From positions 17,236,001-17,300,000 of the forward strand of contig NC_043002.1 of NCBI RefSeq assembly GCF_006345805.1: a stretch of DNA of 64,000 bases, read 5' to 3'. The notes under the pieces were generated by a model, which was not told the origin of the DNA, ran no database searches, and saw only the letters and a program-made list of their open reading frames with translations. This DNA comes from Octopus sinensis. Lineage: Eukaryota. Both the position numbers and the translations under genes were made by a program. Every line of letters starts with the position of its first letter. Position 1 is the stretch's first letter. Below are positions 11,640 through 45,200 of this stretch, one piece after another.

Positions 11640-11835
11640 CAATTAAATATGTTTTTATTATTTTTTTGCAATTTACTTAATCATCGGTATTTTATTGTTT
11701 TTTAATTTTAATATTTCTATTATATGTGTAATTTTCTAGATTGTGTAATTTAATTTTTCATTTTGGATTGATAAAAGGTGTTTTTTTCTAATTTTATATA
11801 TATATATAATATATATATATATATATTATATATTA

Positions 11836-17886: not shown

Positions 17887-18445
17887 GGCGGCCAGCTGGT
17901 AGAAACATTAGCATTCCAGGCGAAATGCATAGCCGTATTTCGTCTGCCGTTACGTTCTGAGTTCAAATTCCGCCGAATTGACTTTGCCTTTCATCCCTTC
18001 GGGGTCGATTAAATATGTACCAGTTACGCACTGGGGTAGATATAATCGACTTAATACCTTTGTCTGTCCTTGTTTGTCCTCTCTGTATTTGGCCCCTTGT
18101 GGGTAGTAAAGAAATAGAAATAGGTATTTCGTCTGCCGCTACGTTCTGGGTTCAAATTCCGCCATGGTCGACTTCGCCTTTCATGCTTTTGGGGTCGATT
18201 AAATAAGTACGAGTTACGCACTGGTGTCGATATAATCGACTTAATCCGTTTGTCTGTCCCTGTTTGCCCTCTCTGTGTTTAGCCCCTTGTGTGTAGTAAA
18301 TAAATAGGTATTTCGTCTGTCTTAATGTTCTGAGTTCACCCCTTTCGAGGTCGATTAATTATGAACCAGCTGCGTACTGGGTCGATCTAATCGACTAGCC
18401 ACTCCGCTAAAATTTTGGGCTGTGTGGCTAGAGTAAAGAAGAATA
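17887..18445 (+). mobile_element. Trimeric family A SINE
   Basis: One full unit followed by two 5'-truncated units, each starting at TAGGTATTTCGTCTG. Confidence 0.88.
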
Positions 18446-22744: not shown

Positions 22745-23083
22745 ACTCTTTTCTCTCTTTTACTCTTTTACTTGTTTCAGTCATTTGACGGTGGCCATGC
22801 TGGAGCACTGCCTTTATTTTAGCAAATCGACCCACAGGACATATTCTTTGTAAGCCTTGTACTTATTCTATCGAACCGCTAAATTACAGGGACGTAAACA
22901 CACCAGCATCGATTGTCAAGCAACGGACTTCTTTCAGTTTCTGTCCACCAAATCCACTCACAAGGCTTTGGTCCGCCCGAGGCTATAGTGGAAGTCACTC
23001 GCCCAAGGTGCCACGCAGTGGGACTGAACCCGGAACCATGTGGTTGGTAAGAAAGCTACTTACCATATAGCCACTCCTACGCC
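22745..23083 (-). mobile_element. Family B SINE lacking the central microsatellite
   Basis: Reverse complement of family B with the 5' and 3' halves joined directly near 22925. Confidence 0.88.
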
Positions 23084-24050
23084 CACATTTGAAGTCGATG
23101 TCTGAAGTTCGCACTCTCTGAAGTCTTCCAGATAATTTTATCTTTAGCGCTAAAATTATTACACTTAAATTTTCATTCCGAATTTAGATGGCTTTTCAAT
23201 GTGGAGGAGCATTATTTCGACTTGCTCTAAAATGGACGGAAAAGATCCATGCATTGCAATCACACATGTATGATCCTTAAATTTCCAGCGGAAATGCTGA
23301 CCCAAATATTGCCAGTAAATACATCAATAGATAAAAACAATTAGCTATATATACACCCAGCACCACGCAAATCACTTAGGAGTGAAAATTATGATTTCTC
23401 GATTTTTTGTGCATCGAAGTTGCTAAAACCTTTCCTAGCTGTGCTGCACACCATAGCAACACCAATGTTATGTTTTCATTTTTCAATGTAACGTCCTTTC
23501 TTTTTCTGTTTCAGATTCTTCAGTTTGTGGATAACTTGCTAGCGGGTACCTTTTTCATTCTATAGAACCATTTATATAGATCCACTATATAGAACCATTT
23601 CCTTAAAAAATGACTATACACAAAAATTCCAATTCTTCCTACTTGATCTACTTAATTCTCCTCCCTGCTTTTTTATGTTAGTATGTATGAATATATGTAA
23701 ATAAATACACGTATATGGGGTTTTGTGGTTTTATCTCCGTGTGTACATGTCTAAAAACCTATATTTCCGTGTGTGTGCGTTTGTGTATTTCTGTATACGT
23801 GTGTGTGTTCGTCTGTATATATTTGTTATACATATGGGTATATGTAATGTATGCGTGTGTCTGTGCGTGTGTGCGTGCGTGAGCACGTAAGTTTGTGTGT
23901 GTGTAAGTCTGTGTGTTGGTGTATGTTTGTAATTAAACACTCCCTATTCAAACACTGAATAACAAATCCTGAAGCAATTTTAAAAACCTTTTTCAAGCAG
24001 GAAACCCCTATTTCAGTAAACTTCTCTCTTTCTCTCTCTGTATATATATG

Positions 24051-24137: not shown

Positions 24138-24248
24138 GGAGAATTCATAAAAAACAAAAGACAAAGACTGACGTCTCTGTTCGAAGGCTTATATTTACCT
24201 AGTTTCAGTGGAATACATCCACTTGTTTACAATAATAGAAATATTAAA

Positions 24249-24505
24249 ATAAGCCTTCGAACACAGACGTCAGTGGCACCTCCTGCGGGTCTGACTGCGC
24301 TACATTGACAAGGGGCAATACCCCGAAACGCGTCTGTAGCTGTCGGACTGGCAGTGTGAAGCGGCTGACCTCCCTTGTTCGAAGGTTATAATGGATACAG
24401 ATCGTGTATCAATAGCTATCTTGATGGCGGTGGCCTCATGGAGCTGACCATGGCAGCGATTATTCTTATATCTATAAGAATGCCATATTAATATGGCGAT
24501 AACAA

Positions 24506-24510
<5 letters not shown>
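24249..24510 (+). mobile_element. Short non-coding hammerhead-bearing element (retrozyme or PLE-terminus-like)
   Basis: Downstream GCTGACCTCCC..GAAGGTTATAATGGA..TGGAGCT..TGGCGATAAA/C matches the reverse complement of 30170-30330; ends in (TA)n. Confidence 0.7.
24283..24354 (+). ncRNA. Type I hammerhead ribozyme with U3-A8 core and extended, bulged stem I
   Basis: CTGC g GGTCTGAC tgc GCTACA-TTGACAA-GGGG caata CCCC-GAAA-CGCG-TC-TGTAGC t GTCGGACT g GCAG. Confidence 0.8.
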
Positions 24511-24588
<78 letters not shown>

Positions 24589-24641
24589 GTATATATATAT
24601 ATATATATATATCTATATATATATATATGCATATATATATC

Positions 24642-24710
<69 letters not shown>

Positions 24711-24767
24711 GTATATATATACGTATATATGTATATATATATATATATGTATATATATATAGATATA

Positions 24768-24836
<69 letters not shown>

Positions 24837-30169: not shown

Positions 30170-30405
30170 TATCAATAGTTATCGCCAAGCTAATTTGGCT
30201 GTCCAGAAATATAGGATGGATGCTGCCGTTGATTAGCTCCAAGCGGCTATCGCCTCTAGCTAGCTATGTGACACACGAACCTGTGTCCATTATAACCTTC
30301 CAACAGGGGAGGTCAGCTGCTTCCCCCTGCGGGTCAGGCATCTGCAGACTAGTTTCAGGGTATTTGCCCCTTATCAATGCAGAGCAGCCGAACCCAGCAG
30401 GCGTT
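30170..30405 (-). mobile_element. Short non-coding hammerhead-bearing element, relative of 24249-24510
   Basis: Colinear homology with the 24.3-24.5 kb element; bounded by TA-rich tracts. Confidence 0.7.
30326..30401 (-). ncRNA. Type I hammerhead ribozyme with U3-A8 core and extended, bulged stem I
   Basis: Minus strand: CCTGC t GGGTT c GGC tgc TCTGCA-TTGATAA-GGGG caaata CCCT-GAAA-CTAG-TC-TGCAGA t GCC t GACCC GCAGG. Confidence 0.8.
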
Positions 30406-40287: not shown

Positions 40288-41547
40288 CGAGGGACGTTCA
40301 ATAAGTTATGCCTCTGACCCACTTGCAGTTGTTTGATCTAGCTGAAATTATGCATGTGCAATCATTTATATCTCTATAGAGTAAGTGGCAAATTACAGCT
40401 CTGAACTAATTGTGGTTTCTGATTTACAGGTGTTTGAACCGAGTCAAGTGTGAAATGGAACCTGTTGTGTGTCGAGCACACCACGGGAGACTTTTGATGA
40501 AATGAAAGTAACTTATGGTGATGATGCCCCATCATATGACCTTGTAAAACGCTGGCATCGTGAATTCAAACATGGTCGGAACTCTGTGGAAACAGCTCCC
40601 AGATCTGGTCGCCCCTTTCTGCCATTGATGAGGCATCTGTCCGTCAAGTTGGGGCTGACATTTTGAAAGATCGACGCATAATTATTCGCCAAATAGCCCA
40701 TGAGGTCAAGATTAGTACCGGGTCTGTGGAAACTATCATTCATGACCATTTGCATATGCAAAAGGTGTCTGCCAGACGGATTCCCAGGTTGCTCACGCCT
40801 TTCCAGAAGCAAGAACGCGTTGAGTGCTCGTGGGTGAATTTGGAGATGTGCCAAGAAGATGACTTGAAATTTTTCAAAAGACTGATTACACAGGAGGAAA
40901 CCTGGGTCCATCACGATGATCCAGAGACCAAATCCCAGTCAATGCAGTGGAAGCACCGTGACTCACCCCCTCCAAAGAAGGCAAGGGTGCAGCCCTCCGC
41001 TGGCAAGGTCATGCTCACAGTCTTCTGGGACCAGGACGGAGTAGTGATAAAAGATTTCCTGGCAAAGGGTACCACAATTGCAGGAGCCTATTATGCTTCA
41101 CTTTTGAGGAAATTCAGAGAAGTTATCAAAATCAAGAGGCGGGGCAAGATCAGCAAAGGCATCCTCCTCCTGCAGGACTACGCTCCGGTCCACAACTCGC
41201 TTGTCGCCAGATCAGAAGCACAGGCGTATGGCTATGAACTCCTCCCCACCCCCCCTACTTTCCTGACCTTGCACCCTCTGATTTTCACCTCTTCCTAATC
41301 ATGAAGTTGTTTTTGAAAGGAAATCGTTTCACAGATGATGCAGCCTTGATTTCTGAAGTCACGTTGAGGTTGGAGGACCAAGGTGGGTTATTCTACAAAA
41401 ATGGTCTCCAGAGCCGCATCAAACGATGGGAGAAATGCGTAACTCCGGGTGGTTCCTATGTAGAAAAAGACTAATATCTGTACCAAGTTACGTTGCTCTA
41501 CTGCTATGGGAAGTGGGTCAGGGGCATTACTTATTGAACGCCCCTCG
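40288..41547 (+). mobile_element. Second near-full-length mariner of the same family as 33792-35061
   Basis: TA-flanked TIRs CGAGGGACGTTCAATAAG / CTTATTGAACGCCCCTCG; 211-aa open segment with ITQEETWVHHDDP and LQDYAPVH. Confidence 0.95.
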
Positions 41548-41549
41548 TA

Positions 41550-42200
41550 CATGCAGTATAAGGAGTTTCCGAATGCTGGCAATGTGGTTACGATATCGAT
41601 TTTTGAAAATACCTGTCATGGATCTCATATATACATAGGGGCCCCCTCTAGCGTTTACAGTGCACCTATATACCACATTTATGGTCATACATTGATTGCC
41701 CAAAGGACATTTCGGTTTGTATCTGCATGGGCATAACTGGCTTTACTTTTTTGTTAGTTTTTGTTCCGCGAGCACTAGGAGAATCGGTCCTGTTCAGTAT
41801 ATTTCTGGTCACTGTTTTCCTTTTATTCTCACTATTTCAAGGTATATTGTTGGTGGTGTGATTCTTTGCATGGTTTTTGTTGTTGATATTGTAGTTGTTT
41901 TCTCTCGGTTTGTTGTTATTATTATCACTGTGATGCATAAATCGTTTGGTATGAGTGTTGTCTCTTGGTCGGTTATGTGAATTGAGGTCAATTTTACGGG
42001 CTTATTTTGAGCGTAGTCGGTTCGGTTCCTCAGTTTACGATTGTTAATCCTATGGACGTGGTGCTCTATATTTAATGAATTAGCATAGGACAGTTTTATA
42101 GAGTCCCGGTTGAATATTTTGCTGTACACTCCATTTTTAGGGAACCAGCGATGAAGTGCGGCCAAAAATTATTTCGCGATCTTGCATGAGATGTTCGAGC
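41550..42200 (-). mobile_element. Penelope-like element linker and GIY-YIG endonuclease fragment
   Basis: FLAALHRWFPKNGVYSKIFNRDSIKLSYANSLNI (PLE KIFNRNTVKVSYS motif) and NQCMTINVVYRCTV..YVYM..FKNRYRNH; abuts the mariner end. Confidence 0.8.
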
Positions 42201-45200
42201 TCCTTTTCTGTTAAGTTTTTTGTTCGGTCGTTTGGAGTGGATGACACCAGATAAAAGCAAATGTTATGTAATGTATTTCATTAGCTTACAACTGTTTTTA
42301 CTATAAGGGTACCCGGATAACATTCTTTAGCCTCATCAGACTATTGAATATGAGGTGCTGGATATTTGGGAAAATTTCATTTTTGGAACATAAGGGGTTA
42401 TATGTGATAAAGTATTTGTTGATACCTATGGAAAAGTCTGAACAAAAGTGGAACAAAGTATGCAAATATACACGTGTTTATACCAGAATGAAAAGACATA
42501 AAAGAAAACTCACACAGACATATAATCACAGAGAGAGAAGAGCTATATGGATACACGCGTATCAATAGTAGTTGTAATTTCTTTGAATTTTTTTTTTATA
42601 TTCCCAACTGGTTTCAATATTTTTTGCTTTCATTTTCAATGCTGATGAAATTAGTTTCAAGAGGGATAGAACTTTCAAGAGGAAATTCAGTAAAGCGTTC
42701 TTAGAAAAGTCAAATGTTCTTACAAATTCCAGTATTGAAAAACTTCCACAGTAAACTAACTTAATGGGATTTCAAATTTGAATTTCTAAGGTTTCAAAGC
42801 ACTATATTATATCAATAATTGCAGACGACTAAATTTGTAACTGAAAAAGGAAAAAAAAAACAGGATTTCTTTACAAGTTCTTCGTCGCTCTTTTTTCTGG
42901 TGAAAGGCTGAACTGTTTTATGCTGAAATTACTTTGTATATAAACGTTCTGATTTGTTATAAACTCAATGACTTCACTCGGCTTTGTTTGTCTGTAGGAA
43001 TAAACCACTTTTCTCTTCTTGAGAATATTTCCTATTTGGCTTAGCAAAATTTGCTTAAGGAAATTTTCTTTCCAAATCGTATGCGGTAGCTACGAATTTT
43101 GCCAGATTGTATAAGTCTTTCTAAGTTTGAAAGATATTCCTCTCATATCCTTCTCTGTAATATGCTTTTCTTTTCTTTACTTAACTTGTTGGAGAAAACT
43201 GGGCCATTTATTTAGATTGATATCATGTTAACTTGGCACAAGCTTTATATGTTTCAGACAAGGGTGCGTTTTTACTCGCTCCGTTATTGTATCGAGTCAC
43301 TGCCTTACATAAATTACGCCTTAATCTTTTAGCCTTGAAAGCTGTTGTGTTGGTCTTATAGTATTTTCCACATGTGTTTGTAAACTAATGATGGAAGACC
43401 ATCTACACTGTTCATGTTTCAAAGTGTTTATACGCGGTCTACCGTATCGTTAATTTGATTACCAAAATATCGAACCGTTGTTTCCCTAAATATTTTGTGA
43501 GATATTCACTATTACGAATATTCGTTCTGTATTGATTCCGTTTTCAAAAGTACGTCTATGTATTATTTCTGCATGCTTCTTTCAGTAGCCTTTAAATCTA
43601 TTTTCGATTTGTGCAACTTTCTCGCCTTTATGTTTATAATTAGCAGCTAGGATATATAACCATCATCCTTCTGTGTAAAATCAAAGCGAAATTACTCGGA
43701 TTGAAAACTGAAATTACAGGCATCATAGTACTTTTATGTATATCAAAACATTTTTTTTTATATTGAATATAAACCAGCGTAGCAAAACATATTTCTTAGC
43801 ACTCATTTCTACATGGAACTAAATAAATATCATCTTCACACCTAGCAACAGAAGATGAGGGATAGGGATCTTCAACTCACGATATGAAATTTCGAATCGC
43901 CTGTGATTATTTGACTCAAATATCCAACTGAATTTGAGGTTATTTTTGTGAGTGGATCAGTATATTTGTACATATGTTTATATACACACACATTAGAAAG
44001 TATATATATATGATAGAGAGACGAATTATATATTGAAATATGTAAATATTATTTCGATACAATGCAATATTTTATACAGTAGAAATATAAAAACGACCTC
44101 TCAACTTCATGATAAAAAAAAACATAAGAATTACTTTTAAAAACACCAAAGAATGTATTAAAATGTGTTTATTGCAGACGAAATTTCCAATTGATTTATA
44201 TACTTTAATCTGATGAGGGAGTTATTCACCATAATTATATTACGTATATTCAATTACTTATCAAATATTTATTCGAACACCTTTTCGTTATTTATGTGCA
44301 ATTCTAAGTGATAATGGAAAGATAGAGATATATGGCGGCGACGAAATATATGTCATTACTATTTACCAAGTAGTCTATAAATTTTATATTGATAAAACAA
44401 AAACTTGTGGTGATAATTCAGATATACCTGACATCACTTTCATCACTGAATAAACACCCTATCAAAACCTTCCAATATTCTATAACACCACTATATTACA
44501 AACCAATAAAATATGTGTCTTTCTTGTCAGTAAATATTCTCAACATTTAATTTGTCCGTTTCTACATATAAAATAAGTCTGCGCACTATCTTTAAAATAT
44601 TTACTTACGTCAATTCTAAATGTTTATACATTATTCAAATCTTACTTACTCTCATGTTTTAAATTGCAATAGATCTGGTATAGTGTCACATTTACCTAAT
44701 ATATCTAACAGTGATCGTTTGGCTATTTTCATTAAACTATCGAATTAGCAACCTCTGAATAACATGAGTATAGGTGTAAGTTAACCATATGGAAACAGTC
44801 ATAAGAATTGCGGCAAGACATTCGGGATATCATATTATGTGCATTCGAAAATATGTTGTTTTTGTCTCAAATCCACATTTCATGAATGAATTTGAATAGG
44901 AAATTCTGAAAAGTGACGTTATATAAAAAAGGAATACTTGGCTTATTCAAAATAAAAGCGAGATTGCATGCGCCAATATTGAACTCCTGAAAATTTGTAT
45001 GAAGCAAGGAAAGGCAATCTATTGTCAAACCAGAGACCTAGACCATACACCTGAAAAGGAATAGGTGCGTATAAATGGAATCAAATATTTGATAACAACA
45101 GGAATCTGAGTGACATTTTATCTCTGCTGTAACACGCAGTGCAACAGTCAATTATTTTTCTTTCAGAAATTATGAAACCTTCTGGTACATTGTAAAATAT

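What the first reader, a model, noticed from the sequence alone, without database searches (positions are those of the whole stretch)
24249..24390. Schistosoma-type hammerhead with a compensatory U3-A8 core at the tip of a ~140-nt rod
Seen: GCTACA-TTGACAA-GGGG caata CCCC-GAAA-CGCG-TC-TGTAGC. Stem I continues past a TGC/T bulge (GGTCTGAC/GTCGGACT, CTGC/GCAG) and further out (GTCAGT/GCTGAC, CCTTCGAACA/TGTTCGAAGG). Established: C3-G8 is a tertiary Watson-Crick pair, so U3-A8 is a compensatory swap. A 6-bp stem I with a 3-nt bulge and a CAAAUA-like loop II is the geometry of the S. mansoni hammerhead. Palindromic stem III is typical of dimer-active PLE/retrozyme HHRs. Inference: a potentially active, non-coding retrozyme-like element that a CUGANGA pattern search would miss.
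Basis: partly seen in the sequence, partly recalled or inferred. Interest (0 to 1): 0.8.

Follow-up and report, generated by a model that had tools for sequence, protein, structure and literature searches.

The report
Hammerhead retrozyme riding Penelope machinery
This is one broken copy of a 363-base repeat family with over 1,500 hammerhead cores in the genome; its RNA is predicted to cut itself, and it inserts in the same two-armed pattern as a young Penelope-like retrotransposon, whose enzyme likely copies it.

Summary
The motif is real: a type I hammerhead fold with a U3-A8 core at 24299-24341. It is not a lone element but a truncated copy of a 363-nt, non-coding tandem unit. At least 1,589 core matches occur genome-wide, in subfamilies up to about 24% apart. 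U3-A8 is fixed while position 7 takes all four bases, and stem III is one of five palindromes, as expected for dimer-active hammerheads. U3-A8 is already published in natural and Penelope-like element (PLE) hammerheads, so it is not the novelty.

The insertions are more informative. 119 of 130 arm ends fall at two fixed sites 62 nt apart, mostly abutting (TA)n. 49 of 81 insertions have two outward-pointing arms. All 39 classifiable ones use one site each, and the two arms share rare variants. A young, intact Hydra-clade PLE in the same genome shows the same pattern (14 of 14, 67-nt tail) with no detectable sequence homology. Best reading: a non-LTR retrozyme copied, likely from a circle, by PLE reverse transcriptase. 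Cleavage, circles and the partner are untested. The window copy has one ribozyme and is probably a dead end.

The parts
24167..24250 (-). Inverted left arm: unit positions q306-363 then q1-26 (q = position in the 363-nt unit, q1 = 24249). Includes q306-345 (24211-24250) of the near-invariant segment. Its 3' end at q26 is non-standard.
24249..24510 (+). Right arm: unit q1-262, about 98% identical to subfamily A; four private substitutions (q16, 30, 31, 33), none in the ribozyme
24249..24250 (.). Junction of the two arms, 2-nt overlap
24254..24387 (+). Rod extending stem I; five pairs with two-sided changes across subfamilies
24296..24298 (+). 3-nt side of the stem I internal loop (UGC; URC in 151 of 162 cores)
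24299..24341 (+). Type I hammerhead: stem I 6 bp, core U3-U4-G5-A6-C7-A8-A9, stem II 4 bp with loop CAAUA, GAAA, C17 at 24334 (predicted cut), unpaired U1.7 at 24341
24328..24333 (+). Palindromic stem III ACGCGU: hairpin +6.0, intermolecular duplex -7.5 kcal/mol
24495..24510 (+). Proximal fixed 3' terminus (q262), inferred reverse-transcription start site
24511..24836 (.). (TA)n tract, inferred target
30171..30404 (-). Second, older copy (subfamily F, 76-77% identical), intact U3-A8 hammerhead at 30341-30383 with loop CAAAUA and stem III ACUAGU, ending at the q262-equivalent site beside a short TA run

Best explanation
The motif belongs to a 363-nt non-coding tandem repeat family that inserts into (TA)n tracts with two fixed 3' ends, and is likely a non-LTR retrozyme copied by a Penelope-like element's enzyme. 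Shown: family, tandem unit, fixed U3-A8 core, palindromic stem III, two termini (q262, q324), two-armed insertions using one terminus each, shared variants between arms, and an intact young Hydra-clade PLE with the same footprint. Inferred: (1) multi-unit arrays are transcribed; (2) neighbouring hammerheads pair their stem III palindromes and cut after C17; (3) monomers are ligated to circles, in which the lone hammerhead is mostly idle; (4) a PLE protein dimer binds the near-invariant q296-345 region, nicks both strands of (TA)n and starts one cDNA at q262 and one at q324; (5) the cDNAs run round the template through the ribozyme site and are joined at short overlaps. The window copy is one such product with a single ribozyme and cannot itself release a unit-length RNA.
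For: Family: 1,379 + 101 + 109 exact matches to three disjoint core patterns, 0 for each reversed control; period 358-363 nt. Core: 72 of 72 in-register cores anchored on stem II only have U3 and A8 (74 rows, 2 out of register). With that stem II, 0 C3-G8 copies and 8 single mutants exist. N7 is A, C, G or U. Stem III is palindromic in 166 of 191 core contexts, five different palindromes (overlapping loci may be counted twice). U1.7 in 153 of 162 and last loop II base A in 162 of 162, the contact described for S. mansoni (PMC11875169). Rod: 92.6% of cells paired against 33-46% for slid controls, 5 of 51 pairs change on both sides. Circle fold z -8.3 (A), -6.5 (B). Footprint: 119 of 130 arm ends at q258-265 (57) or q319-328 (62); 102 of 119 abut TA runs; 49 of 81 insertions two-armed; 39 of 39 classifiable are 262/324, none symmetric, 10 have one non-standard end; 25 of 49 junctions overlap by 1-6 nt (one pair of insertions is a local duplicate). 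Arms of one insertion differ by 0.94% against 2.59% between insertions in B; 12 of 139 rare variants are on both arms against 0.3% expected. q296-345 is 50/50 (A v B) and 49/50 (A v E) identical against 76-85% in most other non-core parts. Partner: 150 of 150 scored hits at 97-100% identity, ORFs to 717 aa, Hydra motifs RWK, DKT, CxCx5C, CxxC, CxH, two ends 67 nt apart at (TA)n, 14 of 14 classifiable two-armed insertions asymmetric. A PLE protein starts cDNA at two internal sites that bound the tail, and cuts and extends both strands (PMC11167929).
Against: No cleavage or circle was observed. The circle is inferred: PMC11167929 found unprocessed RNA to be the main template for a PLE in vitro, and uncleaved multimers would also give arms that cross the ribozyme. 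Arm starts at the cut site are only mildly raised: 8 of 34 junctions in q81-92 map to q87 (3 of these are fold-back ambiguities), and q89 has 7. In subfamily A the arm-sharing contrast is small (1.48% v 1.69%). Long arrays show period-2 and period-4 variants, so part of their length arose by later DNA duplication. No sequence link to the candidate PLE (tail alignment score reached by 93% of shuffles), so the specific partner is unproven; other Hydra families exist. In a related study 8 of 9 predicted retrozyme dimers did not cleave (10.64898/2026.07.22.740005). Loci were chosen by similarity or intact core, not at random; unplaced contigs may duplicate placed loci.
Confidence: 0.75

Rival explanations
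1. PLE-mobilised non-autonomous element copied from linear, uncut or partly cut multimeric transcripts; no circle is involved and the ribozyme only trims transcripts.
For: HHR cleavage was dispensable for PLE insertion in vitro (PMC11167929). Slight excess of arm starts near q87. Higher-order repeats in long arrays.
Against: Insertion-private variants run through nearly all units and both arms (for example 11 of 12 segments at one site), which suggests a monomer bottleneck. Whole-unit circular fold z -8.3. Circles are shown for coral, mussel and axolotl retrozymes (PMC7229834).
Confidence: 0.15
2. The unit is the pseudo-LTR of an autonomous PLE family not yet found, and the copies are its 5'-truncated ends.
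For: 24 of 57 Xenopus retrozyme families match known TEs, 21 of those 22 TEs being PLEs (10.64898/2026.07.22.740005). One B array directly follows a PLE endonuclease gene (L043). All footprint features are PLE features.
Against: In L043 the PLE's own 3' sequence is replaced, and none of the 29 other copies of that family has the unit. No unit homology in 20 further PLE loci except one 39-nt family C piece, nor in 9 long loci of the young family apart from a 21-nt motif outside the PLE. Arms continue unit-to-unit for up to 3.6 kb, longest Met-ORF 77 aa.
Confidence: 0.06
3. The ribozyme is a dead relic carried passively by a mobile repeat; U3-A8 reflects decay.
For: No activity data; Rfam models do not match.
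Against: Core fixed while N7, loops and stems vary; five alternative palindromes; tertiary-contact bases kept across subfamilies 76-90% identical and in a C3-G8 sister family.
Confidence: 0.04

Closest known systems
Metazoan non-LTR retrozymes (Cervera and de la Pena 2020, PMC7229834; mussel 350-390 bp, axolotl 330/350 bp)
   Same: Short non-coding tandem unit, under 50% GC, one canonical type I hammerhead per unit, weak palindromic helix III, self-paired predicted circle, thousands of cores.
   Different: U3-A8 core fixed across the lineage. Two fixed termini, inverted two-armed insertions and (TA)n targeting are not mentioned in the parts read ('inverted' 0 occurrences in the main text). No cephalopod in the main text; supplement unreadable.
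Penelope-like elements, Hydra clade (Craig et al. 2021, PMC8557442) and Poseidon PAc (Frangieh et al. 2024, PMC11167929)
   Same: Tail at one end only, inverted 5'-truncated arm, partial tandems, (TA)n targets, two internal start sites.
   Different: No RT or endonuclease; the whole element is 363 nt; tail 62 nt rather than 30-40; no detectable homology to the two Hydra families tested.
S. mansoni Cercyon PLE minimal hammerheads with U3-A8 (Cervera and de la Pena 2014, PMC4209133); natural U3-A8 cores (Perreault et al. 2011, PMC3088659)
   Same: Same covariation in the core.
   Different: There about 1,300 heterogeneous, mostly single minimal motifs; here a canonical-geometry, highly conserved motif in a tandem unit.

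Membership tests
Type I hammerhead ribozyme | Core YUGANRA / GAAA / NUH around three helices, stem I open | tested here: met
Type I hammerhead ribozyme | Watson-Crick pair between positions 3 and 8 | tested here: met
   U3-A8 in 72 of 72; sister family C3-G8; mixed pairs only as 8 single copies
Type I hammerhead ribozyme | Tertiary-contact bases (unpaired U1.7, last A of loop II) | tested here: met
   153 of 162 and 162 of 162; contact described in PMC11875169
Type I hammerhead ribozyme | Match to an Rfam hammerhead model | tested here: not met
   a database match, not a mechanistic requirement
Type I hammerhead ribozyme | Self-cleavage after C17 | not testable with these tools
   needs in vitro assay
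Non-LTR retrozyme | 150-450 bp tandem unit with a type I hammerhead in each unit | tested here: met
Non-LTR retrozyme | Non-coding, GC under 50% | tested here: met
   GC 0.41-0.42; longest Met-ORF 18-77 aa
Non-LTR retrozyme | Highly self-paired circular fold | tested here: met
   prediction only, z -8.3 and -6.5
Non-LTR retrozyme | Expressed as linear and circular monomer RNA | tested here: inconclusive
   only contigs of runs guessed to be RNA were available
Non-LTR retrozyme | Target-site duplication longer than 4 bp | tested here: inconclusive
   ends lie in (TA)n, duplication cannot be read
Autonomous PLE | RT plus GIY-YIG ORF | tested here: not met
PLE-mobilised element | Two 3' termini bounding a tail, tail at one end only | tested here: met
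   119 of 130 ends; 39 of 39
PLE-mobilised element | Inverted 5'-truncated arm and microsatellite targeting | tested here: met
   49 of 81; 102 of 119
pLTR-derived retrozyme (10.64898/2026.07.22.740005) | Homology to the pLTR of a resident PLE | tested here: not met
   two Hydra families tested; other families not surveyed

The most novel reading that the evidence does not exclude
An independent viroid-like circular RNA lineage, not derived from any resident pLTR, hijacks a Hydra-clade PLE dimer by structural mimicry. One RNA is copied from two fixed sites at once, one for each end of a double-strand break in (TA)n. The strict 262/324 asymmetry would be a genomic record of how PLE dimers integrate, and the 363-nt unit a minimal trans cargo for reconstituting it.
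Probability: 0.35. Interest if true: 0.75.

Novelty: new variant of a known kind. Interest (0 to 1): 0.5.

Why it matters
Which enzyme mobilises animal retrozymes, and how, is stated as open in PMC7229834 (PLEs a 'strong candidate'). The 2026 preprint argues it from co-occurrence and pLTR homology. Here the insertion footprint itself matches a co-resident, intact, young Hydra-clade PLE end for end, without shared sequence. That gives a defined RNA, two predicted start sites and a candidate protein for a direct test. The family also shows that CUGANGA descriptors and Rfam models miss whole retrozyme lineages. The single window copy has no special importance.

Tried and rejected
Rfam: no hammerhead match. 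pLTR link through L043: rejected as adjacency to an older Hydra-like PLE; my notes call that family Neptune-like, but its CxCx5C, CxxC and CxH motifs fit Hydra. PLE RT pieces next to family C (L116, L118) are antisense and not followed up. Shared tail sequence between retrozyme and young PLE: not above shuffles. A recurring junction that looked like a B/C chimera is explained by eye as a fold-back at a 5-nt microhomology. Truncation peak at the cut site: weak, not used as support. Expression: no RNA holder listed. Contigs of runs guessed to be RNA cover the family, and two of them (X1, X3) leave a unique flank uncovered that two other runs cover, but contigs cannot show level, ends or circles. 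Pfam found nothing in two PLE ORFs at E<=0.01, PDB nothing significant; the Atlas gave HTH_animal/GIY-YIG clusters at 0.96-0.99. Earlier findings: none. Paper searches that found no description of this family, or of a PLE tail footprint on retrozymes; one search found nothing. Not seen and possibly relevant: supplement of PMC7229834, supplements of PMC8557442 and of the bioRxiv preprint (not opened), Repbase and Dfam (not available).

Full report
Observation. The hammerhead spans 24299-24341 with core UUGACAA, so U3 and A8, and the predicted cut after C24334. The 142-nt stretch folds as a rod with z -6.4, and stems I and II stay formed whether or not the flanks are included. A scanner accepting C3-G8 or U3-A8 finds two motifs in the window, this one and a relative at 30341-30383, and none in 200 shuffles. 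Rfam does not detect it.

Family. The stretch has 1,253 first-look candidates in the 2.7-Gb own genome, the best 40 at 96-100%. The fetched loci show a 363-nt head-to-tail unit, 41-42% GC and non-coding. Three disjoint core patterns give 1,379, 101 and 109 exact matches with zero controls. Subfamilies A (this copy), B, D, E, F and G are 76-90% identical. A sister family C, about 55-62% alike with a 359-nt unit, has the canonical C3-G8 core. The host is probably an octopus, judged from recalled features (the SINE at 17935-18307, about 30 large contigs); this was not tested.

Constraint on the ribozyme. Anchoring on stem II alone, 72 of 72 in-register cores have U3 and A8 (2 of 74 rows out of register). 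Genome-wide there is no C3-G8 copy with the A/B stem II and only 8 single mutants. Position 7 takes all four bases. Stem III is ACGCGU, ACAUGU, ACUAGU, ACCGGU or ACGU, palindromic in 166 of 191 contexts. As a hairpin it is unstable, as a two-copy duplex stable, the arrangement described for dimer-active metazoan hammerheads (PMC4209133, passages). U1.7 and the last A of loop II are kept (153 and 162 of 162; contact per PMC11875169, passages). On 16 natural copies the rod has 92.6% of cells paired and five pairs changed on both sides; relatedness inflates the shuffle control, and stems I-III themselves show almost no two-sided change. U3-A8 in nature is published (PMC3088659, passages; PMC4209133).

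Insertion anatomy. I merged A/B segments from 110 loci into 81 insertions with 130 arms. 57 arm ends lie at q258-265, 62 at q319-328 and 11 elsewhere; 102 of the 119 standard ends abut TA runs by a rough test. 49 insertions have two arms pointing outward. 39 have both ends standard and every one pairs q262 with q324 (38 if a local duplicate is dropped); 10 have one non-standard end, the window copy among them (left end q26). 25 of 49 junctions overlap by 1-6 nt. Family C behaves alike: 10 of 10 classifiable insertions, 1 non-standard (counted by hand). Arms of one insertion share haplotype in B (0.94% against 2.59%), weakly in A (1.48% against 1.69%), and share 12 of 139 rare variants against 0.3% expected. 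The segment round the distal end, q296-345, is more conserved than the ribozyme. Arm starts are scattered; at the cut site the excess is small (45 hits, 8 indel variants and 3 repeats of one junction dropped, 8 of 34 at q87, 7 at q89, by hand).

Candidate partner. PLE insertions are known for a tail at one end, an inverted truncated arm and microsatellite bias; Hydra-clade elements target (TA)n (PMC8557442, passages and section 11). A purified PLE protein cuts and extends both strands and starts cDNA at two internal sites that bound the tail (PMC11167929, parts 1-2 of 4). An endonuclease gene beside one copy led to a young family: 150 of 150 scored hits at 97-100%, 0.4% mean nucleotide difference among the top 30 (selected by similarity), ORFs of 717 aa with Hydra motifs. 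Its ends fall at two sites 67 nt apart, at (TA)n, and 14 of 14 classifiable two-armed insertions use one of each; two more were cut by the locus edge. It shares no detectable sequence with the unit. An older Hydra-like family also lacks the unit in its 3' region.

Mechanism. Shown: everything above. Inferred: transcription of arrays, dimer cleavage, circularisation, binding of a PLE dimer near q296-345, one cDNA per DNA end, joining at short overlaps. Circles are demonstrated for other animal retrozymes, and PLE mobilisation is proposed there (PMC7229834, parts 2-3 of 6 and Discussion; 10.64898/2026.07.22.740005, parts 1-3 of 5). A linear uncut template remains possible, and later DNA duplication lengthened some arrays. 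The window copy holds one ribozyme with an intact core and is most likely a dead-end insertion.

Novelty. Retrozymes, U3-A8 cores and PLE tails are each known. I found no description of this family, or of a PLE tail footprint on a retrozyme. 'Tail' has 0 occurrences in the preprint; an octopus repeat annotation has 0 occurrences of 'ribozyme' (PMC13282606, passages). Unread supplements and repeat libraries may hold it. Verdict: new variant of a known kind, interest 0.5.

Noticed in passing
window 30171-30404 (-): Older subfamily F copy with intact U3-A8 hammerhead, CAAAUA loop and ACUAGU palindrome; 109 matches to its core pattern (F and G together) genome-wide.
   Followed up: yes
window 11650-11797; L269:6400-7140; L291-L319: A separate AT-rich short repeat (1,039 first-look candidates, best 90-95% identical) that also forms outward two-armed insertions in (TA)n with an optional tail. 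It shares a 21-nt motif with unit q304-324 but in a different register to its ends. No hammerhead noticed by eye. Likely another PLE-mobilised element; the shared motif is unexplained.
   Followed up: partly
L102, L212, L218 (family C): Sister 359-nt retrozyme family with canonical C3-G8 core, ACCGGU palindrome and two ends near its positions 266 and 309-314.
   Followed up: partly
L245 / L274, 3' region of the young Hydra-clade PLE: Hammerhead-like motif with C at position 4, long stem II and an extra U before GAAA, shortly upstream of the proximal end; not tested.
   Followed up: no
own genome: 318 matches to a canonical minimal-hammerhead pattern against 53 controls, many heterogeneous singletons with palindromic stem III, as described for PLE ends.
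   Followed up: partly
window 41569-42201 (-): Short degenerate remnants of a Hydra-like PLE ORF (tblastn E about 1e-5).
   Followed up: no
L196 / L236: A young PLE sits at the q262 end of a subfamily D copy, and the retrozyme's last ~25 nt reappear after the PLE, like a target duplication.
   Followed up: no
window 17935-18307 and 22755-23085: Very high-copy SINE-like repeats; window 40564-41295 has a mariner-like transposase frame (label recalled).
   Followed up: no
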